64,000 nucleotides of DNA. Source: a virus (lineage: Duplodnaviria; Heunggongvirae; Uroviricota; Caudoviricetes). A program made the position numbers and the translations under genes. Position 1 is the stretch's first letter; each line of letters starts with the position of its first letter. The stretch lies in the IMG/VR virus record IMGVR_UViG_3300028886_003642, one strand, 5' to 3'. Below the pieces are notes generated by a model, which was not told where the DNA came from, made no database searches, and saw only the letters and a list, made by a program, of their open reading frames with translations. Positions 23,737 through 40,925 of this stretch are shown in pieces.

Positions 23737-25722
23737 CTAGACTCCATATGGACTTACTGGCGGATCAAAGTTGCTAGTCCACCTAGCTATCGAAGATATT
23801 CTAAACTCATCAATATAAGAATTCGTATAGTTATTATATTGACTTGAATCCATTCCAATAATAAAATCACTAAATGAAAGCGTTTGTTCTGATATACCAC
23901 TTTGACTTGATGACAATACACCATCAATATATATAGATATTACACCACCACTACCAACTATAGCTATATGGTGTGTACCATTTAGTATAGCTGAGGAACT
24001 TTGTATATCAATTAAAGATGTACCAGACACAGAAATAATAATATATCTAAATTTACTATTAAAACTATCATGCCTTACATAACAAAGCATATGCGGTCTT
24101 ATAGATTCATTAACTACACCAAACAATCCTTGATACCCATAATTATTATCAGTATAAACTAACCAAAAATCTACTGTAAATGCATGAGTATTTATAGAGA
24201 AAGAACTATCAGCTTTTATATACTTCTTAGCATTATTTGTATTATTAGCTTGCATAGCACTACCAAATTTCTTATATATACTACTATATGTTGGATCTAT
24301 ACCAACTGCTTGCCAAACTACTCGTGCTTTACCAACATCTTCTATATTATTATCAAAGTGCATCAATACAAGGGTATTTGCATCAATTACCTCACTACCA
24401 TTTCCATTATTAGCTTCATTAGTTACAGGATAATTTATAATATAATCACCATTTGTTAGTAATCTTACTGACATTGTAGTTTTATTTGGATAAGTCACAT
24501 TATAGTCAGTTCCATGTACAGACTGACTCCAACTACCATCAATATCTACTACTGCTGATATTTCTGATAATTCTGCTGATGCATTTTCACTTGTTCCTAT
24601 AAAACATTGCTTAAATGCTATACCATTTGATATATTTAATAATGCTAACATCTCTGGTGTTAATGCATTTATTTGTGCGATACTCATACCATCTTCTTCT
24701 ATATCAGTAGATGTTGCCCACTCCCCTTGTATAGCATCATATACCTTGTAAGTAGTTAAATCTGTAGTTATCGCAAATTTAACTGTGGTATCTGTTATTG
24801 TATTAGTTATATTTATTGATTGTACTGTAGATACTGCTCCTGTATTTATTAGTGATGTTGGTTCTATTGTCTGTGGTTTTGGCTGTCCTGTTACTTTTAC
24901 ATTTGTCGAAGAAGTATCATCTGTTAATACTCTAAATGGTGATATAGTTGCTAAATTTGATATTGCTGGCATATCATCACTAAATGATGGTACTAATGCT
25001 TCTTTCTGTGCATTTGTTAGTGTATTCCACGAATTAGATAATTGTGTTAATGATGCTCCTGTATATAATGAATTATTTGAAAGAAAAGCAAATTTAGATG
25101 GAAGTGTAACACCATTCCATGGTGGAGTAAAATTAGATGTCCACAACGCTCCATCTACAATAACAATGTCATCTAACTCACCGTTAAAATAAGTTACACT
25201 TTGCATACCGTCCCAGCCAATGCATAACTTATTACCAAAATCAACATTATCCAACCATGTTTGTGTTCCTGTTGCAACTCCATCAATATATATTGTTGCG
25301 GTTGTTCCTTGTTTAACTAAAGCAATGTGATGAACAACGCTTACACTATAAGCAGATGAAGATATACATTGAGTAGCGTAACCGTCATTCTTAAATGATG
25401 CGTATGGAATCCATGAACCAGCTCTACCAACAGCTAATCCAGGCCCATACGCCGCATATTTCACTAACGCTACTGGATATTGAGTTGGTTGCAATGCTTT
25501 AACAAATACAGATATAGTATAATCATCAGATGAAGAAAAATTATATGATTGAGATAAGTCTACCACTAAATAATTGCTTCCTGAAAATCTAATAGCTTTT
25601 CCGCTAACCTGAAAATCATTATCGTCAACTACACTAACTGAACCATTATTTGTTATCGTATTTCCTGCCAAATCTTCTATTCCATTTGATGTAGCTCTAA
25701 GTCTAATCAAAAATTCTGACAT
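23737..25722 (-). CDS. tail fibre-like protein with two LamG/concanavalin-A-like lectin domains
   Basis: Repeated LamG-like segments: ...VLMHFDNNIEDVGK...FTVDFWL...; ...FQVSGKAIRFSGSNYLVVD...TISVFVKA.... Located within the fibre gene array. Confidence 0.5.
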   Translation of the reverse strand: MSEFLIRLRATSNGIEDLAGNTITNNGSVSVVDDNDFQVSGKAIRFSGSNYLVVDLSQSYNFSSSDDYTISVFVKALQPTQYPVALVKYAAYGPGLAVGRAGSWIPYASFKNDGYATQCISSSAYSVSVVHHIALVKQGTTATIYIDGVATGTQTWLDNVDFGNKLCIGWDGMQSVTYFNGELDDIVIVDGALWTSNFTPPWNGVTLPSKFAFLSNNSLYTGASLTQLSNSWNTLTNAQKEALVPSFSDDMPAISNLATISPFRVLTDDTSSTNVKVTGQPKPQTIEPTSLINTGAVSTVQSINITNTITDTTVKFAITTDLTTYKVYDAIQGEWATSTDIEEDGMSIAQINALTPEMLALLNISNGIAFKQCFIGTSENASAELSEISAVVDIDGSWSQSVHGTDYNVTYPNKTTMSVRLLTNGDYIINYPVTNEANNGNGSEVIDANTLVLMHFDNNIEDVGKARVVWQAVGIDPTYSSIYKKFGSAMQANNTNNAKKYIKADSSFSINTHAFTVDFWLVYTDNNYGYQGLFGVVNESIRPHMLCYVRHDSFNSKFRYIIISVSGTSLIDIQSSSAILNGTHHIAIVGSGGVISIYIDGVLSSSQSGISEQTLSFSDFIIGMDSSQYNNYTNSYIDEFRISSIARWTSNFDPPVSPYGV

Positions 25723-25725: not shown

Positions 25726-27435
25726 TTAATTCACCTCCAATGAGGTAATATTACAATTAATTATGTTACTGTATGGATATTCTGGAACATTAAAATTTGT
25801 GTCATATCTACAAACATTAGAAAATCTAAACTCATCAACATTCCATAATTTAGTACTTGTATTATATTGAATCATACAAAACACATTAAATGCTGTATTT
25901 GTTGAATAAAAACTACATGATCTTTGAGAAACTAATGTACCGTCAATAAATAAACTTCCATTACCATTTTTCCTAGTAAATGCAAAATGATGCCAATTTT
26001 CATCCATATAATCTATCATTGTAACACTATATATGTAATCATTTGATACTTCATGTCTACCTACCCTTAATTCTGTTCCATTATAAATATAAAAACTTAA
26101 TTGACCATAGCCATTTCCACAAAATATAGACAAAGATGTACCACTAAAACTACTATCAACAATCTTAAACCAAAATTCAATAGTAAAATCACTATTCAAT
26201 GCGCTATTTATAGCAGATATTAAACTGTTATCACTAATCATCATTGCATTAGCATTAGTATCATCATTTATATATAAACCTTTATCAAATTTTCCTGCAA
26301 CATACTCTATATTATAAGATGAATTAACTACTGGGTCTGCATAAGCTGTTTCGTTTATGACTGATTCATTGAAATGAATTACTACTAAATCATTAGAATC
26401 TATTAGATACCTTTTTCCTCCACCTTCAACATAAAAATCATCAAAATCTATTTCATCACTTACACCAATATCAATAGTAGACAATGTTTGTGTAGTTATT
26501 GGATATTCTTTATAATTATATAGTTTAGCTTTACTGTTTTCTATTTTTAGAAAATCACTTGTACCAGTATATGCTGACGCATTATTATAGTTTTCTAATG
26601 TTAATGTTACATTATCACTACCGCCAGTTTTCTTTAATACATCTATTGGAGGTTTACAATAATTACTATCCCCAACTTGTAATAGCATTTCATATGGAGC
26701 TACTACATTTGTTATTATTTTTTGTGCATACGTACTTGTAGAATTAAATGTAGTTCCTATTACATCCCATTCACTATCTACCCAAGTTGTTGATGTTGTA
26801 GTATTAGCTTTATACAGTACATTATTATTTATTACTAAATCTCCAGACGAATAGCTTGTTCCACTTGTCCATTCATCTATACTACCTCCACCACTGATGC
26901 TTGCTGAAATTTCAGTAAATTTTGTATCATCAAATGTAGATGAGCTTGTATGTGCCGTAGTACATCTATAAATCTTATCATTATATATAACAACATCATC
27001 TAATGCATAAGTTGTTGAAGATGACCAATAATCTAATCCTCCACCACCACCAGCACTGATTTCTGCCCATTTCGTATCATCAAATGTACTTGTTGATGTA
27101 TGTGCAGTACTGCATTTATAGATTTTATCATTATATACTACTTGGTCATTTAATGCATAATCAGTACTAGATGCCCAATAATCAATTCCTCTTTTGTCTA
27201 AGTCTACTCTTGTCCAAACAGCTGTTCCATCAGGTAATGTATCTCCTACATCTAATGCTGATACATCAGGTTTTGTAGTAGCAGTTGTTCCAGCTGTAGT
27301 ACATTTTAGAGTATTTCCATCATAATTTACAATATCATTTAAGATATATGCTGTACCTCTTTGCAGGAGTTTTATATGCTCTGCAAGTTCAGCATGATAA
27401 GCTTGTAAATTTTCATTTGTTACTAACTTGCTCAC
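25726..27435 (-). CDS. tail fibre protein with ~40-aa W..Y..GD.V.Y...Y.C.TAHTS..TFD..KW repeats (ChtBD3/CBM5_12-like) and C-terminal LamG-like domain
   Basis: Repeats such as WASSTDYALNDQVVYNDKIYKCSTAHTSTSTFDDTKWAEIS occur three times. C-terminal ...LVVIHFNE...FTIEFWFK... LamG-like. Confidence 0.55.
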   Translation of the reverse strand: MSKLVTNENLQAYHAELAEHIKLLQRGTAYILNDIVNYDGNTLKCTTAGTTATTKPDVSALDVGDTLPDGTAVWTRVDLDKRGIDYWASSTDYALNDQVVYNDKIYKCSTAHTSTSTFDDTKWAEISAGGGGGLDYWSSSTTYALDDVVIYNDKIYRCTTAHTSSSTFDDTKFTEISASISGGGSIDEWTSGTSYSSGDLVINNNVLYKANTTTSTTWVDSEWDVIGTTFNSTSTYAQKIITNVVAPYEMLLQVGDSNYCKPPIDVLKKTGGSDNVTLTLENYNNASAYTGTSDFLKIENSKAKLYNYKEYPITTQTLSTIDIGVSDEIDFDDFYVEGGGKRYLIDSNDLVVIHFNESVINETAYADPVVNSSYNIEYVAGKFDKGLYINDDTNANAMMISDNSLISAINSALNSDFTIEFWFKIVDSSFSGTSLSIFCGNGYGQLSFYIYNGTELRVGRHEVSNDYIYSVTMIDYMDENWHHFAFTRKNGNGSLFIDGTLVSQRSCSFYSTNTAFNVFCMIQYNTSTKLWNVDEFRFSNVCRYDTNFNVPEYPYSNIINCNITSLEVN

Positions 27436-28148
27436 AATACTGCCTCCCCAAATATACTTTCTATTAAGTCAGAATTATCTTCTATATCATATGTTAATTG
27501 TGTAAATTTTGTATCGTCAAAAGTACTAGTACTGGTGTGTGCTGTATCACATCTATAAATGCAATCTTGATACATTACTATGTCATCAACTGCATAATCA
27601 GTAGAAGATTGCCACTCACTTATTCCATTTTCACTAGCACTTACTTCTGCCCATTTTGTTGTATCAAAAGTAGAAGTTGCTGTATGTGCAGTTGTACATT
27701 GATATATATTTCCACTATATATTACTATATCTCCAACATCATAACTTTCTCCAATAGTATAAAAATCTATACCTTTATTGCCGATTAAAGTCCATTTACT
27801 TGCATCAGCTGTAAATGTAGTTGAAGTATGATTAGTATTACATTGATATATATTATTATCATGTATTACTAAATCACCTACAGAATATGTAGTTCCTGTA
27901 GCCCAATCTGAAATAGTTGTACCTCCGCTACCACCAACTAAGTCAAATTTTGTAGAATCAAAAGTTGTAGTTGAAGTATGCTCTGTTTTACATCTATAAA
28001 ATTTTCCATCTTGTATTACAGTATATCCTACTTTATATTTTTTATTGGCTTGCCAATTATTTAATGGTAAGCCATTTGATTTTAGATTATCGTGAAATCT
28101 TGATAATCTATCTAAGTCTATTACTTTTTCATCAGGCAAATTTCTCAC
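27432..28148 (-). CDS. fibre-repeat protein (four HTS-repeats); start probably TTG at 28139 after RBS GAGGTG
   Basis: YRCKTEHTSTTTFDSTKF, YQCNTNHTSTTFTADASKW, YQCTTAHTATSTFDTTKW, YRCDTAHTSTSTFDDTKF. Confidence 0.5.
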   Translation of the reverse strand: MRNLPDEKVIDLDRLSRFHDNLKSNGLPLNNWQANKKYKVGYTVIQDGKFYRCKTEHTSTTTFDSTKFDLVGGSGGTTISDWATGTTYSVGDLVIHDNNIYQCNTNHTSTTFTADASKWTLIGNKGIDFYTIGESYDVGDIVIYSGNIYQCTTAHTATSTFDTTKWAEVSASENGISEWQSSTDYAVDDIVMYQDCIYRCDTAHTSTSTFDDTKFTQLTYDIEDNSDLIESIFGEAVL

Positions 28149-28191
28149 CTCGTTTCTGTGTATAAATAAAAAAGCTCAATCCATACTATAT

Positions 28192-28224
28192 CTAGTATAG
28201 CATAAATTGAGCCATCTGTCAAGT
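28192..28224 (-). promoter_or_regulatory. sigma70-type promoter (-35 TTGACA at 28217-28222, 17 bp, -10 TATACT at 28194-28199), nested between the arms of a terminator hairpin (GCTCAAT at 28174-28180 / ATTGAGC at 28206-28212)
   Basis: Minus-strand reading gacTTGACAgatggctcaatttatgcTATACTag. On the minus strand the hairpin is followed by TTTTTTATTTAT. Confidence 0.5.
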
Positions 28225-28225
28225 C

Positions 28226-28654
28226 TTAATTAAACATATCGTCAATATCTTGATTGTCAGCAATAGTAATATTATCACCAGTAATTCTTACCCAATTAGC
28301 AGAATCATTACTGAAATCACTAACATCTGATGTATGAGCAGTAATACATCTCCAAAGCGCATAATTAGCAAGCACTATATCATCTACTTGATATTGAGTA
28401 GAACCTGCCCATTCTGTTATTACTACTCCACTATATGCATTGGAACTCAAAATCTCGAACTTGTCATTGTCAAAAACTGTATTTGCAGTATGTGCTACTG
28501 TGCATCTGTATAATTCACCATTATGAACTACAATGTATCCAATTTTATATGCGTTACCAGTTGTCCAATCATTTAATGGCAAGCCTTTTTGTTTCAGATT
28601 GTCATGAAATCTTGCAAGTTTGACTTTATCTATCAAATCATCATAAACAGCCAT
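28226..28654 (-). CDS. fibre-repeat protein (two HTS-type repeats, 142 aa)
   Basis: YRCTVAHTANTVFDNDKF and WRCITAHTSDVSDFSNDSANW. Same N-terminal DK.KLARFHDNLK..GLPLN.W motif as 27432..28148. Confidence 0.5.
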   Translation of the reverse strand: MAVYDDLIDKVKLARFHDNLKQKGLPLNDWTTGNAYKIGYIVVHNGELYRCTVAHTANTVFDNDKFEILSSNAYSGVVITEWAGSTQYQVDDIVLANYALWRCITAHTSDVSDFSNDSANWVRITGDNITIADNQDIDDMFN

Positions 28655-28668
28655 TTACCTCCCCTCCA

Positions 28669-28866
28669 TTACTTAAAAATATCATCTACTTCTTCATCTG
28701 TTGCTATATCTGCAAATGGTTCTAAATCCTCTCCATCTCGTATTGCGTGAATGTATGAATATGGAGTTACTATTTGCAGATGATCTAGTGCTTCTCTAAC
28801 AATAATGTACTCATCTTTTACATTTTTATAAACACTCCAACGGTTACGAGGCTCCATTACCACCAC
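28669..28866 (-). CDS. hypothetical acidic protein (65 aa)
   Basis: ORF in track. Confidence 0.3.
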   Translation of the reverse strand: MVVMEPRNRWSVYKNVKDEYIIVREALDHLQIVTPYSYIHAIRDGEDLEPFADIATDEEVDDIFK

Positions 28867-28871
28867 CCTCT

Positions 28872-29444
28872 TTATAAAAACATAGCGTCAATATCATCAT
28901 CACTAGCAATACTAATTTCTCCCATAGCTACATCTACCAGTGTGCTAAAACTGATTTTATAATCCCCATTAGCTATTATATCATACTTATTATTAGCTAT
29001 TACAAAAAGATCTTTTATTTCTATTTCTTTATCTCTTTTCATCTCAGCAATATATACTGCAACACCTATATTTCCTTGCCAATTTGTAAAATCAACGTCA
29101 TTTAATTTACCTAATGGCATTCCTCTTGCAAAATCTCTTAACATCACAAATTCACCATTTAAATAAACATAATAATGTTTAAGGTCATTAGTTAATGCAA
29201 ATCTTACTTCTGCATTTAGTTTATCTGAAATATTTTCTGTTACATTTAGTACATTTTGTCTTAAATACAACTTTCTAGGAAGAATTAAAAAATCATCATG
29301 TATACCTATTGATTTTACTCTATGACCAAAATTATCATCAAAAGTTAAGGTTTTTATTGCTCCTAAATCTTCTAAGGAGTCAACTTCTATTTTTTCATAT
29401 CCTCCACCAATAAGTACATCTTCTATTTCATCTGGCAAAACCAT
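28872..29444 (-). CDS. hypothetical protein (190 aa)
   Basis: ORF after the promoter at 29514-29546. Confidence 0.45.
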   Translation of the reverse strand: MVLPDEIEDVLIGGGYEKIEVDSLEDLGAIKTLTFDDNFGHRVKSIGIHDDFLILPRKLYLRQNVLNVTENISDKLNAEVRFALTNDLKHYYVYLNGEFVMLRDFARGMPLGKLNDVDFTNWQGNIGVAVYIAEMKRDKEIEIKDLFVIANNKYDIIANGDYKISFSTLVDVAMGEISIASDDDIDAMFL

Positions 29445-29513
29445 TATGTTTCACCCCATATATAAATAAAAGCCCAACCAAAAGGTTAGGCTTATTTCCT
29501 GTCCTCTCTAATT

Positions 29514-29546
29514 ATATTATACCATAATTAAAACATTTTGTCAAAT
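29514..29546 (-). promoter_or_regulatory. sigma70-type promoter (-35 TTGACA at 29539-29544, 17 bp, extended -10 TGGTATAAT at 29516-29524)
   Basis: Minus-strand reading aatTTGACAaaatgttttaattaTGGTATAATataatt. Confidence 0.55.
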
Positions 29547-29773
29547 TATTCTCCATCCTCAGTAGGCTCTTCAGGATTTGTGATTGGTTCTTCTGGTTCA
29601 GTAGTAGGCTCTTCACTACCACCGCTACTTTCTGGCGTATACTCATAAGTATCATCACCAATTTTTACACCAGAACTATATTTAGAAGTATTTACAGTAT
29701 ATTTACCTGTTAATGCATCTTTTTCTACGTGTGCTTCTATTGCACCTTTATAACTCTTTAAATCAGTTGCCAT
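29546..29773 (-). CDS. hypothetical protein with acidic PE/PT-rich C-terminus (75 aa)
   Basis: ...GGSEEPTTEPEEPITNPEEPTEDGE. Confidence 0.4.
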   Translation of the reverse strand: MATDLKSYKGAIEAHVEKDALTGKYTVNTSKYSSGVKIGDDTYEYTPESSGGSEEPTTEPEEPITNPEEPTEDGE

Positions 29774-29788
29774 GTTATCATTCCTCCA

Positions 29789-32700
29789 TTAGTTAAACAA
29801 ATTATCTATATCTGAATTAGTAGCATATATTAAATCACCACTACCACCAGAACTTATTTTTATCCATTTATCACTATCACCATAAACAGTAAAATCAGTT
29901 AAATGTGCATTTGGTGAAACTGCTCCAACATCTATATTTACTGAGTCTACAGTTAACTTTATATATTTAGCATTTACTGCATCTTCTGTCCAATTTTCAT
30001 ATGTAATATTATCTATACTTGTTTCTATTGTATATGTAAATGACATTTCAGAAGTAGATTCTGTATAATCTATGTCTGTTATATGCTTAACTGAACCTAA
30101 ATCTATTATTTCTGAATATGGTAATGTAATAGTATCATCTACGTCTATTACATTATCTGATGCTTCGTATATTTTAGCATCTGTTGGCGGCTCATCTGCT
30201 ATACTTTCATGTGTTATTAAAGATTTCCACAATCCATCTCTATAAGATACAACTTGGTCTTTTAAGTACAGTTTATCTACTGCCCAATCTTTTACTAACC
30301 AGTTTGTATCTAATACTTGCCATTTAGAAATATCTCCTAAAAATGTACCTGATGTATGTGCTGTAATACACCTATATGTCTGATTATCATATATTACATT
30401 ATTGCCTACAACATAATAAGTATCAGTTTCCCACAATTGTATATTAGCAGAACTTACTTCTACCCACTTAGATTTATCGAATTGAACATCATTATTATCC
30501 TCTAATGCTATGTATATTTTATCTTCATATACTACTAAATCATCTTTTTTATAACCTTCATAATTTGGATTTTGAAATGGCTCAGTTGGTATATCAAAGT
30601 CATCTATATATTTTTCTCCCTTAGTAATAAGAAGTTCATCAATACCAAATACTCCATGGTCACGCTGACTATGTCTATCCCCCATAGACAAATATATAGG
30701 CAAACTATCTGCTCTTGTAGACGTAGACTCTTTTTTACCATTAATAAATGTAGTACATTTTGTTGGCGAAATAACAAATGCCATATGATTCCACACCCCA
30801 CCAACAAAATTAGTTGGCACAAATTCATAAGGAGAACTATAAAACACCTTCAATCCTTGATACATTGGGAAAGTAATAACTCCCCCTATATTTCCAATAC
30901 TAACATGGGCATTCTCACTAAATCCCCTATCTGTAGCAACTATCCAGAATTCTATAGTATATACCTCATCATTCTGAAAACTATACTGTGGGCTAGAAAT
31001 ATTACCATATCTACCACATAAATCTATTCCTGACCCAAACTTCCCTTCTCCAAGAGCTGGATTATCAGAAATACCAAAGTTATCCCCATATTCATTATAC
31101 CCTTTATCATTTGGATTATCAAAATGCAATAAAGCTAATACATTTGGGTCTGGTGCTCCCCTCCACATTTCTATACTACACTTATTTACTTGTCTCCATT
31201 TAGCCCTTTCAAATGCAATATCATTATTAGCAACTGTACAAATATACAACTGGTCTTCATATATTACAGTATCTCCAACTTTATATGTAGTTCCACTTAC
31301 CCATTGTCTTATATTAGCACTTAGTGGTTCCCAATCAGCTTTATCTAATTCAAATGTTCCAAGTGATGTATGTGCTGTTGTACATTTATATGGTGTATTA
31401 TTATAAAGTACAACTTCACCTTCTAAATAATAGGTATTAATTACCCAATCTTTAACTTGCCACTTTGTATCTAATATGTCCCAGTTAGCTATGTCTGTAT
31501 AAAAATCACTACTATCTGAAGTATGTAATGTTTTACATCTATATATTTGATTATCTTTTATTACAACATTTCCAACTTTATAATCTGTAGATGATTGCCA
31601 TAAGCCAATATCAGCAGAGCTTATTTCATCCCATTTTGTTGGATCAAATGTACTGCCACTTGTATGTGCTGTATTACATTTGTATATTTTATTATTATAT
31701 ATAACTACATTTGAAGTAGTATATGCTTCATTTGCTCTCCATATATCTATTCCAGTACTACCAATAGCATCCCAATAAGCAATATCAGTATTAAAAGAGG
31801 TTGAATCAGATGTATGGTCTGTATTACATCTATATAATTTATTATCATGTATTACTAATTGACCAATTTCATAGTCGGTAGAAGGTGTCCATGTACTTAT
31901 TTCGTTTATTGTTGGCGAAAGTTCTTCCCAATTTAGTTCTTCTGTAGCATCCCAAGTACTTTCAGAAGTATGTGGAGTAGTACACCTAAAAATTTTAGCA
32001 TCATGAGATACTAAATCTCCAATAACATAGTCCTTATTTGCTTCCCAATTTGGTATTCTAGTAATACATGCACTTATTTCATTCCACTTATCAGAATCAG
32101 CATTAAATGTTGCTCCAGACGTATGTGCAGTAGTACACTGATATATCTTATTTGCATATACTACTACATCTCCAACAATATAATCAGTATTTTGTTCCCA
32201 TTGATCTAATCCACCGCCACTTACTTTTTGCCAATTAGAAATAGTAAAATTAGTATCATTATTTGCTGTAATACATTTATATAGAATACCATTATAATTT
32301 ACATACTGACCTACTACATAATCACGACTACCTACCCAATCGTTTATTGAGTCTGTAAGTAAATCCCATTTAGCAATAGTAAATGAAGCATCATTATTTG
32401 TAGTATTACATCTATATAAATTACCATTATGTCTTACCAGTTGATTTTGGTAGTAGTGTGTACTACCTACCCAATCTCTAACATACCCATTTGGATCATG
32501 CAATAATTGCCATTTTAAATAATCAAAATTTGCTCCTGATACATGTGGGTCTATACATTTATATAACACATTATTGTAATAAACAACCACATCTTGATCA
32601 TACCACGCATTACTTGTCCATGGAATAATACTTGCAAATACTGGCTCCCACTTTAATGTATCATCAGTAAATACACCACTTGAAGTATGAGTTTCAACTG

Positions 32701-33424
32701 CTCTATATAATAAACCATTTTTAGTTATTAATTGATCTTTTAAATAATTTGTTACACTATGCCATTCTGAAGCTCTAGCTAAATTACCTACAATATCCCA
32801 ATAAGGAACTTCTCCAGCATTTGTAAATGTGCTTGCAGAAGTATGATCTGCATTACATTTATATATTACATTATTTACTATTACTGTATCATCTTCATAG
32901 TAAAATTTATTCAGTACCCATGGTCTAATACTTGCATATATCTCTTGCCACTTTGACTTATCTGGCTCAAATGTACCAGAAGCTGTATGATTTACTTTTG
33001 CCCTATACAAAGCATTTGCATATATTACAATATCTCCACGAGAATAAATCTCACCACCAAGCCAAATCATTATGGGGGCAGAATTATCTGTAGCCTCAGT
33101 TAATGACATTACTTTCCAAGTAACTGATCCTTCTGTTAATACTGAACCAGTAACATTATTTCCTGGCTCTATACCACCACTTGTACCACCAGTTATACAT
33201 TTAGCATATTGATGTGATTTCATATTAGGCCATCTTACCACATCATTAGCTATATAAGTAGTATTTTCTTCCCACTCTGTCCAATGTAAAGCAGTTTGTA
33301 GATGGTCTATACCCAATACTTTTGAGTCAATATCGTCCAATATGTTATTAAAAGTATCTGAAATAAAATAATCTGTAGGCTGTACTTTAATTATATTTAA
33401 CTTTTCTGTATGTGTTGCAGACAA
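29789..33424 (-). CDS. giant tail fibre / receptor-binding protein (1211 aa) with roughly 14 or more HTS-type ~40-aa repeats, a LamG-like domain and a C-terminal head
   Basis: Repeats Y.C.TAHTSG.TF..DKW.EIS recur through residues ~100-720. Then ...LALLHFDNPNDKGYNEYGDNFG...YTIEFWIV... LamG-like. Directly downstream of the gpJ-like gene and the promoter at 33473-33505. Confidence 0.6.
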   Translation of the reverse strand: MSATHTEKLNIIKVQPTDYFISDTFNNILDDIDSKVLGIDHLQTALHWTEWEENTTYIANDVVRWPNMKSHQYAKCITGGTSGGIEPGNNVTGSVLTEGSVTWKVMSLTEATDNSAPIMIWLGGEIYSRGDIVIYANALYRAKVNHTASGTFEPDKSKWQEIYASIRPWVLNKFYYEDDTVIVNNVIYKCNADHTSASTFTNAGEVPYWDIVGNLARASEWHSVTNYLKDQLITKNGLLYRAVETHTSSGVFTDDTLKWEPVFASIIPWTSNAWYDQDVVVYYNNVLYKCIDPHVSGANFDYLKWQLLHDPNGYVRDWVGSTHYYQNQLVRHNGNLYRCNTTNNDASFTIAKWDLLTDSINDWVGSRDYVVGQYVNYNGILYKCITANNDTNFTISNWQKVSGGGLDQWEQNTDYIVGDVVVYANKIYQCTTAHTSGATFNADSDKWNEISACITRIPNWEANKDYVIGDLVSHDAKIFRCTTPHTSESTWDATEELNWEELSPTINEISTWTPSTDYEIGQLVIHDNKLYRCNTDHTSDSTSFNTDIAYWDAIGSTGIDIWRANEAYTTSNVVIYNNKIYKCNTAHTSGSTFDPTKWDEISSADIGLWQSSTDYKVGNVVIKDNQIYRCKTLHTSDSSDFYTDIANWDILDTKWQVKDWVINTYYLEGEVVLYNNTPYKCTTAHTSLGTFELDKADWEPLSANIRQWVSGTTYKVGDTVIYEDQLYICTVANNDIAFERAKWRQVNKCSIEMWRGAPDPNVLALLHFDNPNDKGYNEYGDNFGISDNPALGEGKFGSGIDLCGRYGNISSPQYSFQNDEVYTIEFWIVATDRGFSENAHVSIGNIGGVITFPMYQGLKVFYSSPYEFVPTNFVGGVWNHMAFVISPTKCTTFINGKKESTSTRADSLPIYLSMGDRHSQRDHGVFGIDELLITKGEKYIDDFDIPTEPFQNPNYEGYKKDDLVVYEDKIYIALEDNNDVQFDKSKWVEVSSANIQLWETDTYYVVGNNVIYDNQTYRCITAHTSGTFLGDISKWQVLDTNWLVKDWAVDKLYLKDQVVSYRDGLWKSLITHESIADEPPTDAKIYEASDNVIDVDDTITLPYSEIIDLGSVKHITDIDYTESTSEMSFTYTIETSIDNITYENWTEDAVNAKYIKLTVDSVNIDVGAVSPNAHLTDFTVYGDSDKWIKISSGGSGDLIYATNSDIDNLFN

Positions 33425-33527: not shown

Positions 33528-36500
33528 TTATGTTTCACCATAAAGCTGAGTTTCATACCAATTACTATTTCTATATCTATAGTACCTTCTATTAACACCT
33601 TCAGCCCTAGTAAAATCATTTTGTAATACATATTCTTCTTTTAACTCTATTTCATGAATTACTGCATCATTATCACCATTAGCACCATCTACTCTATATG
33701 CTTTAGTTGAAGGAATATATCTAACACCATCTTGACCTGTAATGCCACTTAAATCTGTAGTAGTACTATCAGCGACTAAAATTAAAGGTGCATCTTCAAA
33801 TGTCATAGTAGAAAATTCTACGTAAGTAGACTCAGGTATTTCAATATGTGTTGCAGTAACAATACTATCAGCATACGTTTTTGCCATTTGATCTACGTCA
33901 TCACCATCTTGTGGATATATAATACCAACAACTCTAGGTACATGATATATTAGATGTTTATCATAATGGTCAAATGAGTATAAATCTTTTTGTTTATTAT
34001 AAGAACCAATTTCCAATTGAACATCACTAACTCTTTGAAGTCTATTCCCCATCTGCACACAAAATTCATTCCAGAATAGTGTAATATCAGTTGGGAACTC
34101 TTTTGTAACATTTCCATCATCATCAGTTACTTCAACAACAGCGTCATATTTAAATTCAAACTCTTTTTCATTACAAGTACATTTAATATAGTATTGTGTA
34201 GTATCTTCTGGTTCAGCATCATTTTCATTATTATGCACATTTATATTATCAGACTGATTAAACTTATTTCTTAGATTATATGTAAAGTTTATATCATGCC
34301 CAAATATAGTACCTGCTGGATAATTATAATTATAAACTGTTTTATCTCCACGCTCAGCAGCAAATTTAAGATTAGCCATGGGAGATGGACATTCACTTCT
34401 GCGTTTAGTGTAAAATGTTACTATATCATCTATATTAAACTGCTCTTCTTCATCTACCGTACCAGACCTAAGTTCATACTGCTCATCTGCAAAATTACCT
34501 TCTGTAGCTACTCTCTTATCATCAACCTGCAATTCATAATCCAAAAAATAAACTTTAGAATATGCTGGATGATCTCTTGGTATAGTATCATATACACCAT
34601 GAATTACATTTGTTAGCGTATAATGACCATTAGGTAATTTAATCATTGTATCATATGTTAGTATCTCACCGTCAATTACCATCATATTTCTATTAGATTT
34701 ATTTGTATATACAGATGGATAATCTAATATTTTTTGACATTTATCATCAAACAAATCTCTTGCTTGAGCACCAATAACTTCTATCTCAAACCCAGTATTA
34801 TCTTCATCATAAATTTCTTTCGTACCATATACTAATTGAGCTACCATTGACCAATCATTAGTTCGTGTTCTTCTAGCATATTCTGTTCCAGTATATCTAT
34901 AATTAACATAATAATCATCATCATTTGTAGGTCTAGCAGCATAAGCATTAACATAAGTATCCAAAGATTTAGTCCATTCATACGGCATTTCCATATACAT
35001 ATAGTACTGGATTGATGACGCATATTTTTTAGGATTAGTCCATTCTGGTACTTCTGCATAAGCATACCTTGTATTTTCAAATCCATATATATCTTCAATT
35101 GCAGTTACCTTTATAGCATTAGCTGTAAGAGTAGCATAATCTATATCTGTAACTCTATATATTTGATTATCTATTCCATATGACAACCAATGTACTATTA
35201 TTGGATCACCAAGACCAATATCATGACCAAACCTATTTGTAGTAAACTCTACTGTAGATAATGGATAACCAGAAGCTAATTGTGAGATTTTTGCTAACCA
35301 ACCAGCGTTCTTAGGTACAGTATAATAAACTCCCTCAACTGAAGACTCTTTATAAGATCTTGTTATAAATCTATTGGCCACATCTTGGTATATTACTGTA
35401 CCATCAACATATTTATTAGAAGCATGAGTAAATGAAACAGTTGTTGCTGAAGATGTTTCTGACCAATCTAATCTTGTAAATTTCATGCTTTCACAATTAC
35501 TTGGGTTAAAAATAGGCAATGTACTTGGGTCATAATCACCACGAATAAGCTTAAATGTAAGTCTACCTGTATACGGATTATCATACATTATACCATTTAT
35601 ATGATTTAATATCTTTTGAATATATGAACCAGCCTGTGCTTCTGATGTAATTAAGCATGATACACCTAGTCTTTCTTCCTCACAAGTTATGCCTAATTGC
35701 AATAAACTCTGTGCATCTATATCTGTTATTCTATCATAATTACATCCCCATAAATCATTTGTAAGAATTGCATAGATTGCCTCTGCTGGGTTCAAATCTT
35801 CATCCAATTTCCCTAAATGCCAAACACCATTATCAAGAAGCGTGTCTAAAGGATCTACTAAAGAAGCTACCTCATCTCTATTTGTTTGAGGATAATTATC
35901 TCTAACTGCATCCGCAGCATCCCTTAACGCTTGGAAAGTTTCTTCTGTTTTCTCATGAGCTTCATCTGCTTCTTGTTTTGCTTTATCATATTCTTCTTGT
36001 GCATCAGTAATTACTTGCTGATCTCCACTACGTTCAGCTTCTTCCAGTCTTTCTCTAGCTCTATCCATTACATCTATTTTTAACTGTTCTGCTTTATAAT
36101 AAGCGTCATATTCTCCTTTAGCTTCCCGCAATTCTTTTGTATAATCTTCCATATAAGTTTGTACTGATTGGTCTTGATTAGATATATATGCTAAAATATT
36201 ATCAACTAGCTCACCTATACGTTTAGAATATAGACCAAATAAATCTGACTTAAATTCTTCATATAACTTTGTTGGATAGTTTACTACCTCAAACCACATT
36301 TCTGGCATAGTTGACTGTTTACCAATATACGCACCATCAACTTTATTTCTATCAGATACTACACAAGTTAAAAACATCGGATATCTTGGAGTCAATCCCC
36401 TCAAATCTTCCTCTATAGTATCTGCTTTCATTTCATTTACCATCCATGAGTCTTTTGGTTGTTCATAAGTACCAAAATAAAACCTTACTTCCCCAATAAA

Positions 36501-37439
36501 GCCTCCACCTTCATCTACACCACCAAACATTTGGTCATTGTCGATATATGCAGATATACCAGTAGGATTATCTTTTTTATATGCTATATGATTATCATTA
36601 TCCCAAACACCAGTTTCTGTAGATTGCTCAACTTCAGTATCATATACATTCATCCACAATCTCTTAACACCGATATTTTCATCTGTCCAACAAAGAATAT
36701 GTTGCCAGCCAAGATAATATTTAAATCCTTTTTGAATAGTGGTACGTAATAAATGTTTACCTATTAAGTATGATAATAGCCATAAAATAAAATTAAGTAA
36801 TGCTTGCATTATAAGAGCACGTTTTTTACCTGGTCCACTAAGGTCAATAGTTCCCTCTACAGGTGCTGGCCCAGTGGAAGTAATCGCATTTAAAACAGTT
36901 GTCGAAGGTGGTGTCTTCTGTTTAGGCACATCACCAATTTTACCAGAATTATTATTCATACCAGAAGTTCCGCCTCCAGTAACAGTAGCAGCAGGTAATC
37001 CGCCAATAGTCATAGCCTCTGTTGTTCTTCCTGTTATCTCTACTCCTGTACCAGCAGTAACCTTTATAGTGTCTTTCTCTGATACAGCAAGAATAATTGG
37101 AATTAAACTAAGTATCCAAGGCCAAATATCAAGATTACTATGTGCTCCATACTCTTCTGTATAAATATCTGCTCTAAATGCACCATAATAAGAAATTAAA
37201 GGATTTTTTATCATTACTCTACCTAATGCTACAGGTATTGGTTGACCTATTTGATTTGAATTACTATCTGTATATGGTGAAGCTTGCATAGAAGAAGTAG
37301 AATCACTATCACTATTATTTCTATTAAGTAGCCACAAAAGTAAAGTAGATATTCCCCAACCCAAGAATGAATTGAACCAACCTCCACCTCTACTTGTACT
37401 ACTAGATTTACTTTTAACTGTAGCTGCCATATTAACCAC
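33528..37439 (-). CDS. host-specificity protein J-like tail tip protein with a ~480-aa N-terminal extension (TM helices plus coiled-coil)
   Basis: Central region resembles lambda gpJ: ...LSTVEFTTNRFGHDIGLGDPIIV versus lambda TVDFSVGAEGLRHVPGDVIEI, and W...L.....YG.G.. / ITCxxxL blocks. Immediately downstream of the gpL-like gene (8-nt overlap). N-terminal hydrophobic helices and an EEAERSGDQQ...EADEAHEKTEE coiled coil. Confidence 0.55.
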   Translation of the reverse strand: MVNMAATVKSKSSSTSRGGGWFNSFLGWGISTLLLWLLNRNNSDSDSTSSMQASPYTDSNSNQIGQPIPVALGRVMIKNPLISYYGAFRADIYTEEYGAHSNLDIWPWILSLIPIILAVSEKDTIKVTAGTGVEITGRTTEAMTIGGLPAATVTGGGTSGMNNNSGKIGDVPKQKTPPSTTVLNAITSTGPAPVEGTIDLSGPGKKRALIMQALLNFILWLLSYLIGKHLLRTTIQKGFKYYLGWQHILCWTDENIGVKRLWMNVYDTEVEQSTETGVWDNDNHIAYKKDNPTGISAYIDNDQMFGGVDEGGGFIGEVRFYFGTYEQPKDSWMVNEMKADTIEEDLRGLTPRYPMFLTCVVSDRNKVDGAYIGKQSTMPEMWFEVVNYPTKLYEEFKSDLFGLYSKRIGELVDNILAYISNQDQSVQTYMEDYTKELREAKGEYDAYYKAEQLKIDVMDRARERLEEAERSGDQQVITDAQEEYDKAKQEADEAHEKTEETFQALRDAADAVRDNYPQTNRDEVASLVDPLDTLLDNGVWHLGKLDEDLNPAEAIYAILTNDLWGCNYDRITDIDAQSLLQLGITCEEERLGVSCLITSEAQAGSYIQKILNHINGIMYDNPYTGRLTFKLIRGDYDPSTLPIFNPSNCESMKFTRLDWSETSSATTVSFTHASNKYVDGTVIYQDVANRFITRSYKESSVEGVYYTVPKNAGWLAKISQLASGYPLSTVEFTTNRFGHDIGLGDPIIVHWLSYGIDNQIYRVTDIDYATLTANAIKVTAIEDIYGFENTRYAYAEVPEWTNPKKYASSIQYYMYMEMPYEWTKSLDTYVNAYAARPTNDDDYYVNYRYTGTEYARRTRTNDWSMVAQLVYGTKEIYDEDNTGFEIEVIGAQARDLFDDKCQKILDYPSVYTNKSNRNMMVIDGEILTYDTMIKLPNGHYTLTNVIHGVYDTIPRDHPAYSKVYFLDYELQVDDKRVATEGNFADEQYELRSGTVDEEEQFNIDDIVTFYTKRRSECPSPMANLKFAAERGDKTVYNYNYPAGTIFGHDINFTYNLRNKFNQSDNINVHNNENDAEPEDTTQYYIKCTCNEKEFEFKYDAVVEVTDDDGNVTKEFPTDITLFWNEFCVQMGNRLQRVSDVQLEIGSYNKQKDLYSFDHYDKHLIYHVPRVVGIIYPQDGDDVDQMAKTYADSIVTATHIEIPESTYVEFSTMTFEDAPLILVADSTTTDLSGITGQDGVRYIPSTKAYRVDGANGDNDAVIHEIELKEEYVLQNDFTRAEGVNRRYYRYRNSNWYETQLYGET

Positions 37440-38328
37440 CTAATCCAATATCACCAGTATCACCGTTAGTATCTTCATATCTAAGATTATCTTTTACCCA
37501 ATATGTACCTTTACAAGTAGGATGTGTAAATGCATTATAAGGCATAATATAAGGTACACCACTAAAATTATCAGAATTACCAAACTTCCTTGCACATACT
37601 GAAAATAAATTCTGACATCCAGGATATACCTTAAAGCTACCTTGCCAATCTGATGACCTTATTGGATATTTTATTTGAATCCAATCTGCTTGTGCATTTA
37701 CTATTGCTCTATAACTATTACCCATTTTTAAAAACCCATCTATTGGCCAACCCTCTTCATGTTCTCTAAGATTTGTTGAATAAAGCCTCATACCATTAAC
37801 ATGCTTATCTAAATAGCATTGTAATGCATAATTTTCTGGCTCAAGTGTACATTTGTTATCATAAATACAATTTTGACAATAATAAGAAAGCTTACCTCTT
37901 GGAATCAATCTATTTAAAACATTTTCTATTGTAATAGTTAATTCTGCATAACTACCATCAAAAGATACTTGTGTAACTACACCCCTTAAAATTAAAGCAT
38001 AATCACTATTATTTAATCCATGCACCCTGTATACTCTTACTCTTACAATATCTTCTTCTGGTGGTGCTCCTTGAAATAATAATGCTATATTATTTGTTCT
38101 ACTAACTGTTATTGTTGTAGTTTCAGTATTACCGCTGGAATTACCAGTTTTTAATGAATCACCACGTTTTATATACTCAGGATTAAATACATACCACTGA
38201 TTATTAAGGAAAGCTGATTTAGCATAGCCACTTGATGTATATGTAAAATCTACATTAGCATAAGTAAATATATATAATTCTACTGGTTGTGCGTCTTGAA
38301 TCGAAGTTTCATCATCATAAAAACTCAT
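37432..38328 (-). CDS. minor tail protein L-like (gpL family, 4-Cys cluster)
   Basis: C-terminal ...YYCQNCIYDNKCTLE...QCYL...GCQNLFSVCARKFGNSDNFSGVPY parallels the lambda gpL Cys cluster and its FRNNVGNFGGF segment. Confidence 0.45.
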   Translation of the reverse strand: MSFYDDETSIQDAQPVELYIFTYANVDFTYTSSGYAKSAFLNNQWYVFNPEYIKRGDSLKTGNSSGNTETTTITVSRTNNIALLFQGAPPEEDIVRVRVYRVHGLNNSDYALILRGVVTQVSFDGSYAELTITIENVLNRLIPRGKLSYYCQNCIYDNKCTLEPENYALQCYLDKHVNGMRLYSTNLREHEEGWPIDGFLKMGNSYRAIVNAQADWIQIKYPIRSSDWQGSFKVYPGCQNLFSVCARKFGNSDNFSGVPYIMPYNAFTHPTCKGTYWVKDNLRYEDTNGDTGDIGLGG

Positions 38329-39566: not shown

Positions 39567-39609
39567 CTATTTCACCTACCTTTAATATATAATAAAGCCC
39601 CTATTTTCT

Positions 39610-39642: not shown

Positions 39643-39757
39643 TCTTTGTATTTAAATACCAAACTAATAACTCCAGTTCGGCGAAAGCATTTTTTTACTT
39701 TATATTTCTATAAAGATTAGACTATATCTTATCCATGCCTTATATTAAGGTTTAGGT

Positions 39758-40915: not shown

Positions 40916-40925
40916 AGGCTATCAC

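What the first reader, a model, noticed from the sequence alone, without database searches (positions are those of the whole stretch)
25726..33424. Four consecutive fibre genes built from the same ~40-aa repeat (W..Y..GD.V.Y.....Y.C.TAHTS..TF...KW), including a 1211-aa giant
The repeat resembles chitin-binding domain type 3 / CBM5_12 modules. It occurs ~14 times in 29789..33424, 3 times in 25726..27435, 4 times in 27432..28148 and 2 times in 28226..28654. These are combined with LamG lectin-like domains in 29789..33424 and 25726..27435, and in the neighbouring 23737..25722. Long arrays of near-identical repeats across adjacent genes are substrates for recombination that could rapidly reshuffle receptor specificity. 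Carbohydrate-binding repeats also suggest glycan receptors.
Basis: partly seen in the sequence, partly recalled or inferred. Interest (0 to 1): 0.6.

Follow-up and report, generated by a model that had tools for sequence, protein, structure and literature searches.

The report
Phage tail-fibre genes with chitin-binding-type repeats
An uncultured phage from an anaerobic, probably rumen or gut, community carries a cluster of tail-fibre genes built from 26 old, diverged copies of a small chitin-binding-type sugar-binding module plus other lectin domains; this is a large but fairly ordinary example of a known kind of phage host-recognition locus.

Summary
Four minus-strand genes (29789-33424, 28226-28654, 27432-28148, 25726-27435) carry 16, 2, 4 and 4 copies of a ~45-aa module. 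The module matches Pfam CBM_5_12 (E 2e-96 to 3e-16), and the two units I modelled (G15, G16) fold like the tandem CBM12 pair of Vibrio chitin oligosaccharide deacetylase. LamG domains are confirmed in two genes and probable in the giant. The giant also ends in a CBM32/discoidin-like domain.

- The copies are not near-identical. Median identity is 35% amino acid and 54% nucleotide, and the longest shared exact word is 20 nt.
- Each copy is closest to the same-position copy in related phages, so I find no exchange between the adjacent genes.
- Exchange does occur between related phages at matching positions. One ~500-nt tract is 93-100% identical, with synonymous sites matching too, inside a gene otherwise 56-70% identical.
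- The gene set downstream of a conserved core differs in every relative.
- The four genes are not strictly consecutive. Three other ORFs lie between them.

Five adjacent products share an unexplained C-terminal peptide (…DIDxLF). A distant relative diversifies its equivalent gene with a DGR, which supports a receptor-binding role. Ligand and host are unknown.

Verdict: a new member of a known kind, of modest interest.

The parts
29789..33424 (-). g1211, the giant fibre protein. Layout: N-terminal ~46-aa anchor-like segment; one degenerate long-loop unit (aa ~47-118); 13 CBM5/12 units (G1-G13, aa ~120-747); a LamG-like insert (aa ~755-950); 3 more units (G14-G16, aa ~950-1090); a CBM32/discoidin-like beta-sandwich (aa ~1093-1195); C-terminal peptide YATNSDIDNLFN.
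   Evidence: Pfam CBM_5_12 E 2e-96 and Laminin_G_3 at 25.8 bits. Unit map. PHROG 9851 tail fibre, E 1.5e-44. AF2 model of the last 215 aa has pLDDT 88.7. Foldseek hits are the CBM12 pair of Vibrio COD and CBM32/F5_F8 folds. F5_F8_type_C E 3.4e-4, below the curated cut-off.
29546..29773 (-). g75, a small ORF with an acidic, Pro-rich C-terminus. It is present in two of the three relatives that show this region (L004, L005).
   Evidence: Gene calls on L001, L004 and L005. Sequence and ribosome-binding site. No Pfam hit.
28872..29444 (-). g190, a repeat-free protein conserved in all close relatives. It belongs to a narrow family that links remotely to the middle domain of g661. It ends in IASDDDIDAMFL.
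   Evidence: No Pfam or PHROG hit. Only 5 clusters in 5.8 billion proteins and 8 representatives. P0128 matches g661 aa 225-447 at E 3e-19. The AF2 model is poor, pLDDT 52.8.
28669..28857 (-). g62, a small conserved ORF that ends in the same C-terminal peptide (IATDEEVDDIFK).
   Evidence: Gene calls. Sequences.
28226..28654 (-). g142: an N-terminal helix motif (LARFHDNLK), 2 CBM5/12 units, and the C-terminal peptide IADNQDIDDMFN. Conserved at 88-90% nt in L003 and L007.
   Evidence: Pfam E 2.9e-16. Units. Conservation.
27432..28148 (-). g238: the same N-terminal helix motif (LSRFHDNLK), 4 CBM5/12 units, and a degenerate C-terminal peptide (SDLIESIFGEAVL). It is more likely 235 aa, starting at the TTG at 28139, which has the better ribosome-binding site. 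Its stop overlaps the start of g569. It is the first gene of the variable cassette.
   Evidence: Pfam E 2.4e-32. Units. Start codon and RBS. The L005 orthologue has 5 units.
25726..27435 (-). g569: N-terminal helix (LQAYHAELAEHIKLL), 1 divergent and 3 canonical CBM5/12 units, a middle domain, and a C-terminal LamG domain (aa 412-539). Units C2 and C3 are the most similar pair in the window (77% aa, 73% nt), which points to a one-unit duplication or loss.
   Evidence: Pfam CBM_5_12 E 8.6e-25 and Laminin_G_3 E 8.8e-13..
23737..25722 (-). g661: two LamG domains flanking a middle domain (aa ~225-447) that is homologous to the wider g190 family. It has no CBM5/12 units and is the last fibre-like gene of the cluster.
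   Evidence: Laminin_G_3 E 1.4e-27, 2 stretches. PHROG 3545, 13163 and 15809. P0128 comparison.
33528..37439 (-). A gpJ-like tail-tip (host specificity) protein immediately upstream of the cluster. It fixes the cluster's place in the tail module.
   Evidence: Phage-tail_3 E 6e-8. PHROG 1101 E 1.8e-108. tblastn hits to tail proteins of Gram-negative siphophages. The gene order is conserved in L003-L007, L010 and L011.

Best explanation
This is the distal tail-fibre (receptor-binding) locus of a large uncultured siphovirus-like phage from an anaerobic, probably rumen or gut, community.

**Gene content.** After the gpJ-like tail-tip gene comes a conserved core: a 1211-aa giant, then g75, g190, g62 and g142. 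A swappable cassette follows (g238, g569, g661).

**Building blocks.** The proteins are strings of small, independently folding lectin-type modules:
- 26 ChiA1-ChBD/CBM12-type units
- LamG domains
- a CBM32/discoidin-like domain
- a g190-type domain

**Proposed mechanism (inferred, not shown).**
- The N-terminal parts anchor the proteins to the tail tip.
- The CBM5/12 arrays form extended beads-on-a-string stalks. They give multivalent, individually weak binding to a beta-linked polysaccharide on or around the host.
- The more variable LamG, discoidin-like and distal modules set the specificity.

**Evolution (shown).** Specificity evolves by homologous exchange between related phages at orthologous positions, by replacement of the lectin insert and of whole distal genes, and by occasional gain or loss of one unit. 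It does not evolve by recombination among the diverged paralogous units within this genome.
For: **Domain identity.** Pfam. PDB sequence hits to the CBM12 pair of Vibrio COD and to the ChiA1 ChBD. A confident AF2 model and Foldseek probability 1.00 to the COD CBM12 pair, plus CBM32-type folds for the C-terminal domain.

**Tail-fibre context.** The cluster lies directly after the BR0599-like and gpJ-like genes, and this order is conserved in seven related loci. PHROG tail-fibre families match. Distant relatives in cultured phages are annotated as tail fibre or minor tail proteins. BFVD holds many phage proteins with the same modules.

**Receptor-binding role.** In the distant relative L010, the CBM-containing gene right after the giant is the target of a DGR: there is an RT gene, a TR/VR pair, and 17 of 19 mismatches fall on template adenines.

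**Anchor end against variable end.** L003 is collinear with the window at ~77% nt from the tail-assembly genes through the gpJ-like gene into the first ~690 aa of the giant. Identity then drops to 30-50%. The LamG insert is the least conserved segment in all four comparisons, and it is replaced by a different domain in P0005, P0007 and P0014.

**Exchange.**
Against: - No ligand, host or virion association has been shown.
- CBM5/12 units could be purely structural spacers.
- The aromatic position that aligns with the key chitin-contact Trp of ChiA1 ChBD is Phe in 22 of 26 units and Trp in only 2. Chitin-grade affinity therefore cannot be assumed.
- Canonical tail fibres are trimers. Nothing here tests the oligomeric state.
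- The host hint (a 3-kb contig binned into a rumen Erysipelotrichaceae MAG) is weak. It fits poorly with the Gram-negative-phage affinities of the gpJ-like protein and with the TPS-domain gene.
- The shared C-terminal peptide has no explanation in this model.
Confidence: 0.72

Rival explanations
1. The arrays act as an intragenomic recombination engine: near-identical repeats within and between the adjacent genes recombine and rapidly reshuffle receptor specificity.
For: Many copies of one module lie in four neighbouring co-oriented genes. Unit number differs by one between orthologues (g238 has 4, the L005 orthologue has 5; g569 has 4, the L007 orthologue has 3). C2 and C3 look like a fairly recent duplication. 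Array length ranges from 5 to 25 units in the family.
Against: - Median unit identity is 54% nt and the maximum is 73%. The longest exact shared word is 20 nt.
- Between-gene identity equals within-gene identity.
- Every unit is closest to its positional orthologue in another phage, so there is no concerted evolution.
- The cluster is 100% identical in two samples.
Confidence: 0.07
2. The CBM5/12 arrays mainly bind environmental insoluble polysaccharide (plant-fibre cellulose, fungal or other chitin, or mucin-type glycans) rather than the host cell. This would hold the phage on particles where hosts live, as proposed for Ig-like decoration domains in the 'adherence to mucus' model. The distal LamG or other modules would bind the real receptor.
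For: - The units are of the ChiA1-ChBD/CBM12 type, whose characterised members bind insoluble chitin (the ligand information is from my own knowledge of the family).
- High copy number suits avidity for a polymeric surface.
- The source is probably a rumen or gut community: there is a RUG MAG hit and the phage encodes an anaerobic NrdD.
- Distant relatives occur in marine Vibrio phages and cyanophages, which live in chitin-rich habitats.
Against: The proteins are encoded in the tail-tip fibre module, not with the head or tail-tube genes. A related phage directs a DGR at one of the CBM-containing genes, which is typical of true receptor-binding proteins. There are no binding data of any kind.
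Confidence: 0.13
3. The CBM5/12 units are structural only. They would be rigid spacer beads that set fibre length, with no ligand binding. All recognition would reside in the LamG, CBM32-like and g190-type domains.
For: - The key ligand-contact Trp is mostly replaced by Phe.
- Units are strongly conserved by position between phages, up to 100%, whereas the lectin insert is the variable part.
- Four units use an 'NND' motif in place of 'HTS'.
Against: - g142 and g238 consist of little except CBM units and terminal motifs, so they would have no function under this model.
- Exposed aromatic positions are still conserved in 24 of 26 units.
- Mosaic exchange tracts fall within the array itself.
Confidence: 0.08

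Closest known systems
CBM12/CBM5 chitin-binding modules (Pfam PF02839), e.g. the B. circulans ChiA1 ChBD (PDB 1ED7) and the tandem CBM12 pair of Vibrio chitin oligosaccharide deacetylase (3WX7, 4NZ4)
   Same: The same ~45-aa module and the same W…Y…G-D-x-V…Y-x-C-x-x-x-H-T-S…aromatic…W signature. Sequence E-values to the solved chains go down to 3e-7. The predicted fold superposes with Foldseek probability 1.00.
   Different: There is no catalytic glycoside hydrolase or deacetylase domain. Copy number is 16-17 in one protein, against 1-2 in the enzymes. The position of the key ligand Trp is Phe in most units. The context is a phage tail module. The ligand is unknown.
CBM5/12-containing 'tail fiber-like' and 'minor tail' proteins of sequenced phages (PHROG 9851; Synechococcus phages S-CAM1 and S-CAM3, Prochlorococcus P-SSM2, Vibrio phages BONAISHI, Yong and 2.275.O, Pelagibacter phage Mosig, Gordonia and Rhodococcus phages), and many uncultured-phage entries in BFVD annotated ChiA1-BD, ChiC_BD or CBM 5/12
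   Same: Arrays of the same module in proteins annotated as tail fibre or minor tail.
   Different: Identity is only 22-35%. Only 31 of 50,697 phage records match at all. As far as my literature searches show, none has been functionally characterised. The arrangement here of four repeat-bearing genes plus LamG, CBM32-like and g190-type modules is specific to this uncultured clade.
Modular, mosaic side-fibre and receptor-binding loci downstream of gpJ in siphophages (lambda stf/tfa-type loci; CBM-rich adhesion devices of Gram-positive siphophages, as in PMC8540738)
   Same: The position after the tail-tip gene. A conserved proximal part with swapped distal parts. Lectin or CBM modules are used for saccharide recognition. 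Mosaic exchange occurs between related phages.
   Different: The module type (CBM5/12 arrays) differs. A peptide at the extreme C-terminus is shared by several products. No recognisable tail-fibre assembly chaperone was found.
DGR-diversified phage receptor-binding proteins (Bordetella phage BPP-1 Mtd type)
   Same: The distant relative L010 carries an RT gene and a TR/VR pair with adenine-specific differences, targeting the C-terminus of the CBM-containing gene next to its giant.
   Different: The window itself has no TR/VR-like repeat pair, and no RT was seen in or next to the cluster.

Membership tests
CBM5/12 (PF02839, ChtBD3-type carbohydrate-binding module) | Sequence match to the family profile above the curated cut-off | tested here: met
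   316, 86.9, 111 and 59.7 bits against a cut-off of 26.2 for the four proteins. 26 units were found with my own HMM.
CBM5/12 (PF02839, ChtBD3-type carbohydrate-binding module) | Small antiparallel beta-sheet fold like the solved CBM12 and CBM5 modules | tested here: met
   The AF2 model of units G15-G16 plus the C-terminal domain has pLDDT 88.7. Top Foldseek PDB hits are the tandem CBM12 of 3WX7, 4NZ4 and 9JT0, probability 1.00, E 2e-4. This is a predicted structure, not a solved one.
CBM5/12 (PF02839, ChtBD3-type carbohydrate-binding module) | Conserved exposed aromatic ligand-contact residue (Trp687 of the ChiA1 ChBD; the residue's role is from my own knowledge and was not found in the searchable library) | tested here: inconclusive
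   The aligned column is aromatic in 24 of 26 units, but it is Phe in 22 and Trp in 2. The H-T-S motif is kept in 18-20 of 26 units. Four units have N-N-D instead.
CBM5/12 (PF02839, ChtBD3-type carbohydrate-binding module) | Binding to chitin, cellulose or a related polysaccharide | not testable with these tools
   This needs pull-down or glycan-array experiments.
Phage tail fibre / receptor-binding protein | Encoded in the tail module, distal to the tail-tip (gpJ-like) gene | tested here: met
   The order is conserved in L003-L007, L010 and L011.
Phage tail fibre / receptor-binding protein | Homology to proteins annotated or shown to be tail fibres | tested here: met
   PHROG 9851 'tail fiber protein', E 1.5e-44. 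tblastn hits to tail-fibre and minor-tail genes. This is annotation-level evidence only.
Phage tail fibre / receptor-binding protein | Presence in the virion, oligomeric fibre structure, and a role in adsorption | not testable with these tools
   The phage is uncultured, and neither proteomics nor multimer prediction was available.
LamG / concanavalin A-like lectin (PF13385) | Profile match above the curated cut-off | tested here: met
   g661 scores 97.1 bits (two copies) and g569 scores 49.1 bits against a cut-off of 27.6. For g1211 the test is inconclusive: 25.8 bits, E 1.4e-5, just below the cut-off.
F5/8 type C / CBM32 discoidin domain (C-terminal domain of g1211) | Profile match and beta-sandwich fold | tested here: inconclusive
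   Pfam F5_F8_type_C scores 21.2 bits against a cut-off of 28.2, E 3.4e-4. Foldseek matches CBM32 modules, neuropilin b1 and factor VIII C2 at probability ~1.0, but with E of 4e-3 to 1e-1 and TM-scores (normalised to the target) of 0.3-0.5.
Repeat-driven recombination cassette system (long near-identical repeats that recombine within a genome) | Long tracts of near-identical DNA between units or genes | tested here: not met
   Maximum 73% nt identity over a unit. The longest exact word is 20 nt. There is no concerted evolution.
Diversity-generating retroelement target | An RT gene plus a template/variable repeat pair with adenine-specific differences | tested here: not met
   There is no TR/VR-like pair anywhere in the window. 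The feature is met only in the distant relative L010.

The most novel reading that the evidence does not exclude
The acidic-hydrophobic peptide at the extreme C-terminus ([I/Y]A[T/S/D][N/D]x[D/E][I/V]Dx[L/M/I]F) could be a common plug-in tag. It is shared by five adjacent products (g1211, g190, g62, g142 and, in degenerate form, g238) and by at least 37 of 120 giant homologues across a divergent family. Through it, several different lectin-type fibre proteins would be docked onto one adaptor, or handled by one assembly factor. That would be a C-terminal attachment or assembly logic, unlike the N-terminal anchoring of classical tail fibres. The long CBM12-type arrays might at the same time tether the virion to insoluble polysaccharide particles.
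Probability: 0.2. Interest if true: 0.6.

Novelty: new member of a known kind. Interest (0 to 1): 0.35.

Why it matters
The locus shows how an abundant but uncultured clade of large phages builds its host-recognition apparatus. Contigs in this clade reach 126-199 kb and come from anaerobic gut or rumen-type samples. The apparatus is made almost entirely from small lectin modules. The locus also gives a clear case where many tandem repeats are not a recombination engine: the units are old and positionally stable, and diversity comes from exchange between phages and from cassette swapping, or from a DGR in one relative.

Practically, g142 and g238 are compact candidates for glycan-binding probes. 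The variable LamG or discoidin-like insert flanked by conserved units suggests a natural site for engineering specificity. None of this changes current understanding of phage receptor-binding proteins.

Tried and rejected
- **Megablast of 20 kb against 50,697 phage records:** no match. No cultured close relative exists in that collection.
- **Exact-sequence look-up of the 238-aa protein:** failed, probably because gene callers start it at the TTG at 28139. The 142-aa protein worked.
- **Host identification by scanning bacterial genomes with the TPS-domain protein:** one 3-kb contig binned into a rumen MAG. This is too weak to name a host.
- **Structure prediction of g190:** even with the richest allowed alignment, pLDDT was 52.8. 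I did not use it for a fold search. g190 has no Pfam or PHROG hit and only 8 representatives among 1.84 billion proteins.
- **Literature searches** for CBM5/12, ChtBD3 or chitin-binding modules in phage tail fibres: nothing specific. The 'CBM_5' in the Oenococcus phage paper is only a numbering label. A search for the ChiA1 W687 work found nothing in the searchable library.
- **DGR in the window:** considered and rejected.
- **Intragenomic concerted evolution:** considered and rejected.
- **Patchy identity as protein-level constraint only:** considered and rejected, because synonymous codons also match in the tract.
- **PHROG scan of the ten large ORFs upstream (37432-52941):** only the two tail-assembly genes were identified.

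Full report
**1. What is there.**
The region 23.7-33.4 kb contains a run of co-oriented minus-strand genes. All have Shine-Dalgarno-like motifs. Gene finders called them in the same way on two metagenome contigs that are 100% identical to the window: ENA ERZ27252065 k141_62998 (80 kb) and Logan SRR7971122.

In the order of transcription the genes are:
- a gpJ-like tail-tip gene, 33528-37439 (Phage-tail_3; PHROG 1101, E 1.8e-108)
- g1211, 29789-33424
- g75, 29546-29773
- g190, 28872-29444
- g62, 28669-28857
- g142, 28226-28654
- g238, 27432-28148 (more likely 235 aa from the TTG at 28139)
- g569, 25726-27435
- g661, 23737-25722
- a TPS-domain gene and holin-like genes

**2. Check of the observation.**
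Pfam CBM_5_12 matches g1211, g569, g238 and g142 at E 2.1e-96, 8.6e-25, 2.4e-32 and 2.9e-16, far above the curated cut-off.

An HMM built from the window's own units finds 16 + 4 + 4 + 2 = 26 copies. It finds none elsewhere in the six-frame translation of the window. The period is 135-156 nt.

LamG (Laminin_G_3) is solid in g661 (two copies) and g569. It is marginal in g1211 at 25.8 bits against 27.6.

The four repeat genes are interrupted by g75, g190 and g62. The copies are not near-identical.

**3. What the module is.**
The nearest solved sequences are the tandem CBM12 pair of Vibrio chitin oligosaccharide deacetylases (3WX7, E 3.4e-7) and the 45-residue chitin-binding domain of B. circulans chitinase A1 (1ED7).

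A single unit aligns to 1ED7 as WEQNTDYIVGDVVVYANKIYQCTTAHTSGATF against WQVNTAYTAGQLVTYNGKTYKCLQPHTSLAGW. The units are therefore of the ChiA1-ChBD/CBM12 type.

An AlphaFold2 model of the last 215 residues of g1211 is confident, with pLDDT 88.7. It covers units G15 and G16, the C-terminal domain and the tail peptide. Foldseek places the two small modules on the COD CBM12 pair (probability 1.00). It places the C-terminal domain among CBM32/F5_F8-type discoidin beta-sandwiches, and also near beta-sandwich proteins of the Agrobacterium phage Milano and 7-7-1 fibre complexes. Pfam sees F5_F8_type_C in that domain only below threshold.

The column that aligns with the last Trp of the 1ED7 segment is Phe in 22 units and Trp in 2 of 26. 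From my own knowledge this Trp is W687, the key chitin contact; I could not find the source in the library. The fold and the aromatic character are kept, but chitin-grade binding cannot be assumed. Four units (G5, G6, G13, G14) have N-N-D in place of H-T-S.

**4. Are the repeats recombination substrates?**
Pairwise identity between units has a median of 35% aa and 54% nt. The best pair (C2/C3 in g569) reaches 77% aa and 73% nt. The longest exact DNA word shared anywhere in the region is 20 nt. Identity within genes (0.35) equals identity between genes (0.37).

When units from the related loci are added, each window unit is closest to the same-position unit of another phage (62-100% for 24 of the 26 units). 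Its best paralogue in the same genome is far behind (29-60%).

The arrays are therefore old and positionally stable. There is no concerted evolution and no detectable exchange between the adjacent genes. Two samples carry the cluster without a single difference.

**5. Exchange does occur, but in another form.**
The giant has 188 homologues at E <= 1e-5 in the 5.8-billion-protein collection. Nearly all come from metagenome assemblies and are unnamed. One is labelled 'MAG TPA: Chitin oligosaccharide deacetylase [Caudoviricetes sp.]'. They carry 5-25 units, with a median of 15.

Block-wise identity to g1211 is strikingly patchy:
- P0005 is 83-98% identical from the N-terminus to G6, and 17-49% from G12 onward.
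- P0006 is 96-100% identical in G6-G8 (91% in G9), but 38-61% in the N-terminal third.
- P0007 and P0008 are 95-100% identical in G10 (89-95% in G11).
- P0004 is 88% identical in G15.

The DNA shows the same pattern:
- L005 is 93-100% identical over aa ~331-525, inside a background of 56-70%.
- L003 is 89-100% identical over aa 91-270.
- L004 is 92-94% identical over aa 1006-1050.

In the L005 tract, 95% of identical residues also use the identical codon, against 66-71% elsewhere. These are recent DNA exchanges between phages, not regions of stronger protein constraint.

Three further observations fit this picture:
- The LamG insert (aa ~755-950) is the least conserved segment in all four comparisons (30-68% nt). 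In P0005, P0007 and P0014 it is replaced by a different, discoidin-like domain.
- One-unit differences exist between orthologues. g238 has 4 units and its L005 orthologue has 5. g569 has 4 units and its L007 orthologue has 3, with C2 and C3 both matching the same L007 unit.
- At gene level, a core is conserved in L003, L005 and L007: the giant, g190, g62 and g142 (g190-g142 are 84-90% nt identical). L004 ends inside the g142 position, and g75 is seen only in L004 and L005. The genes after g142 differ in every relative: Collar-domain genes in L003; 439, 399, 505 and 438-aa genes in L005; a TnpB insertion followed by 292 and 456-aa genes in L007.

**6. Further anatomy not in the finding.**
(a) Four products end in one peptide: g1211 YATNSDIDNLFN, g190 IASDDDIDAMFL, g62 IATDEEVDDIFK and g142 IADNQDIDDMFN. 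g238 has a degenerate form.
- A loose regular expression for the peptide hits 4 of 769 six-frame ORF pieces in the window, and all four are in this cluster.
- It is kept in the orthologues.
- It is kept in at least 37 of 120 giant homologues, including distant ones and one where it directly follows a CBM unit.
- AF2 predicts a short terminal helix for it.
- In the distant relatives L010 and L011, only the giant carries it.

Its role is unexplained.

(b) g238 and g142 share an N-terminal motif (L-x-R-F-H-D-N-L-K). g569 has a related helix.

(c) g190 has no Pfam or PHROG match and belongs to a very narrow family. Its remote relatives P0128, P0130 and P0132 link it to the middle domain of g661 (E 3e-19). 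Two of them end in the same peptide, and one adds a CBM unit. The g190 model was too poor to use.

**7. Function and mechanism.**
*Shown:* the domain identities, the position in the tail module, the conservation pattern and the exchange pattern.

*Inferred:* these are the side or distal fibres of a large siphovirus-like phage.
- The N-terminal half of the giant travels with the gpJ-like gene. L003 is collinear at ~77% nt from the tail-assembly genes into the giant, and then diverges. This is the usual pattern for an anchor end and a variable receptor end.
- The CBM arrays probably act as extended multivalent stalks with weak affinity for a beta-linked polysaccharide.
- The LamG, CBM32-like and distal cassette domains probably set specificity.
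- Independent support for a receptor-binding role comes from L010, a distant relative whose giant P0041 is 37% identical. There the CBM-containing gene right after the giant ends in a 100-nt variable repeat. Its template lies next to a reverse transcriptase gene, and 17 of 19 differences sit on template adenines. That is a genuine DGR.

The window has no such element.

**8. Host and habitat.**
- The window has 31% G+C with a strong, uniform strand bias.
- It encodes an anaerobic ribonucleotide reductase.
- The gpJ-like protein resembles only those of phages of Gram-negative bacteria, at 23-26% identity.
- A TPS (two-partner secretion) domain protein with a signal-peptide-like N-terminus lies next to the cluster.
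- The only bacterial-genome match to that protein is a 3-kb contig binned into a rumen 'Erysipelotrichaceae' MAG. That is not reliable host evidence.

The host remains unknown. The habitat is probably rumen or gut.

**9. Comparison with what is known, and novelty.**
CBM5/12-type modules in phage tail proteins are already on record:
- PHROG 9851
- cyanophage 'tail fiber-like' proteins, Vibrio jumbo-phage proteins (one annotated 'carbohydrate-binding module family 5/12'), a Pelagibacter phage, and Gordonia and Rhodococcus 'minor tail proteins'
- many uncultured-phage entries in BFVD named ChiA1-BD, ChiC_BD or CBM 5/12

They are nevertheless rare: 31 of 50,697 records. They are also distant (22-35% identity), and in the searchable literature they are uncharacterised.

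Mosaic fibre loci, swappable distal cassettes and DGR-targeted receptor-binding proteins are all well-known themes. I therefore file this as a new member of a known kind. Its less ordinary aspects are the size of the arrays, the all-lectin construction and the shared C-terminal peptide.

**10. Verdict.**
It is right on module identity and on a probable glycan-recognition role. It is wrong on 'near-identical' and on repeat-driven inter-gene recombination. It is right, in a different sense, that exchange reshapes the locus.
- Interest is 0.35.

Noticed in passing
window 20418-20643 (-) and 19132-20394 (-): A full-length HEARO RNA (Rfam RF02033, 125 bits, E 2e-25) lies directly 5' of a 420-aa RRXRR + HNH ORF. 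Together they form an IscB/omega-RNA (OMEGA) type element inside the phage genome, just after the holin-like genes. Relatives L007 and L010 carry a 425-aa RRXRR/HNH gene in a similar position.
   Followed up: partly
window 21337-23637 (-): A 766-aa protein with a signal-peptide-like N-terminus and a TPS (two-partner secretion, FHA-like) domain (PF05860, E 7e-25) lies between the fibre genes and the holin-like genes. It looks like a moron gene. It is present in L005 (96% nt) but absent from L003 and L007. The only bacterial-genome match is a 3-kb contig of rumen MAG RUG14222.
   Followed up: partly
L010 14693-14792 (VR), 15470-15569 (TR), 15744-16835 (RT): A distant relative has a genuine diversity-generating retroelement in its fibre cluster. 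The variable repeat is the 3' end of the 561-aa CBM-containing gene next to its giant. 17 of 19 TR/VR differences are at template adenines.
   Followed up: yes
window 10844-11962 (-); L007 16106-17326: The window has a TnpB gene (OrfB_IS605 + Cas12f1-like TNB domains, 372 aa). In relative L007 a 406-aa TnpB is inserted inside the fibre cluster, between g142 and the variable cassette.
   Followed up: no
window 39758-52941 (-): About 13 kb of large ORFs (385, 422, 563, 817, 522, 436, 647 and 595 aa) have no PHROG match. They lie between the putative tape-measure gene (the 1989-aa ORF at 57209-63178) and the tail-assembly genes. This may be an unusually large, uncharacterised baseplate or distal tail complex.
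   Followed up: no
window 28669-28857 (-), 29546-29773 (-): Two small ORFs lie within the cluster. g62 is conserved in L003, L004, L005 and L007 and ends in the shared C-terminal peptide. g75 is seen in L004 and L005 and has an acidic, proline-rich tail (EEPTTEPEEPITNPEEP).
   Followed up: partly
window 8001-10220 (-), 13080-13979 (-), 15268-17004 (-): The phage encodes an anaerobic ribonucleotide reductase NrdD (E 1.7e-145), an SPFH/Band 7 protein and an SNF2-family helicase. The NrdD gene indicates an anaerobic host.
   Followed up: no
whole window: All ORFs of 100 aa or more that look real are on the minus strand. GC skew is uniformly negative (about -0.16 to -0.33) across all 64 kb at 31% G+C. 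Related contigs reach 126-199 kb, so this appears to be a large phage genome with one long co-directional block.
   Followed up: no
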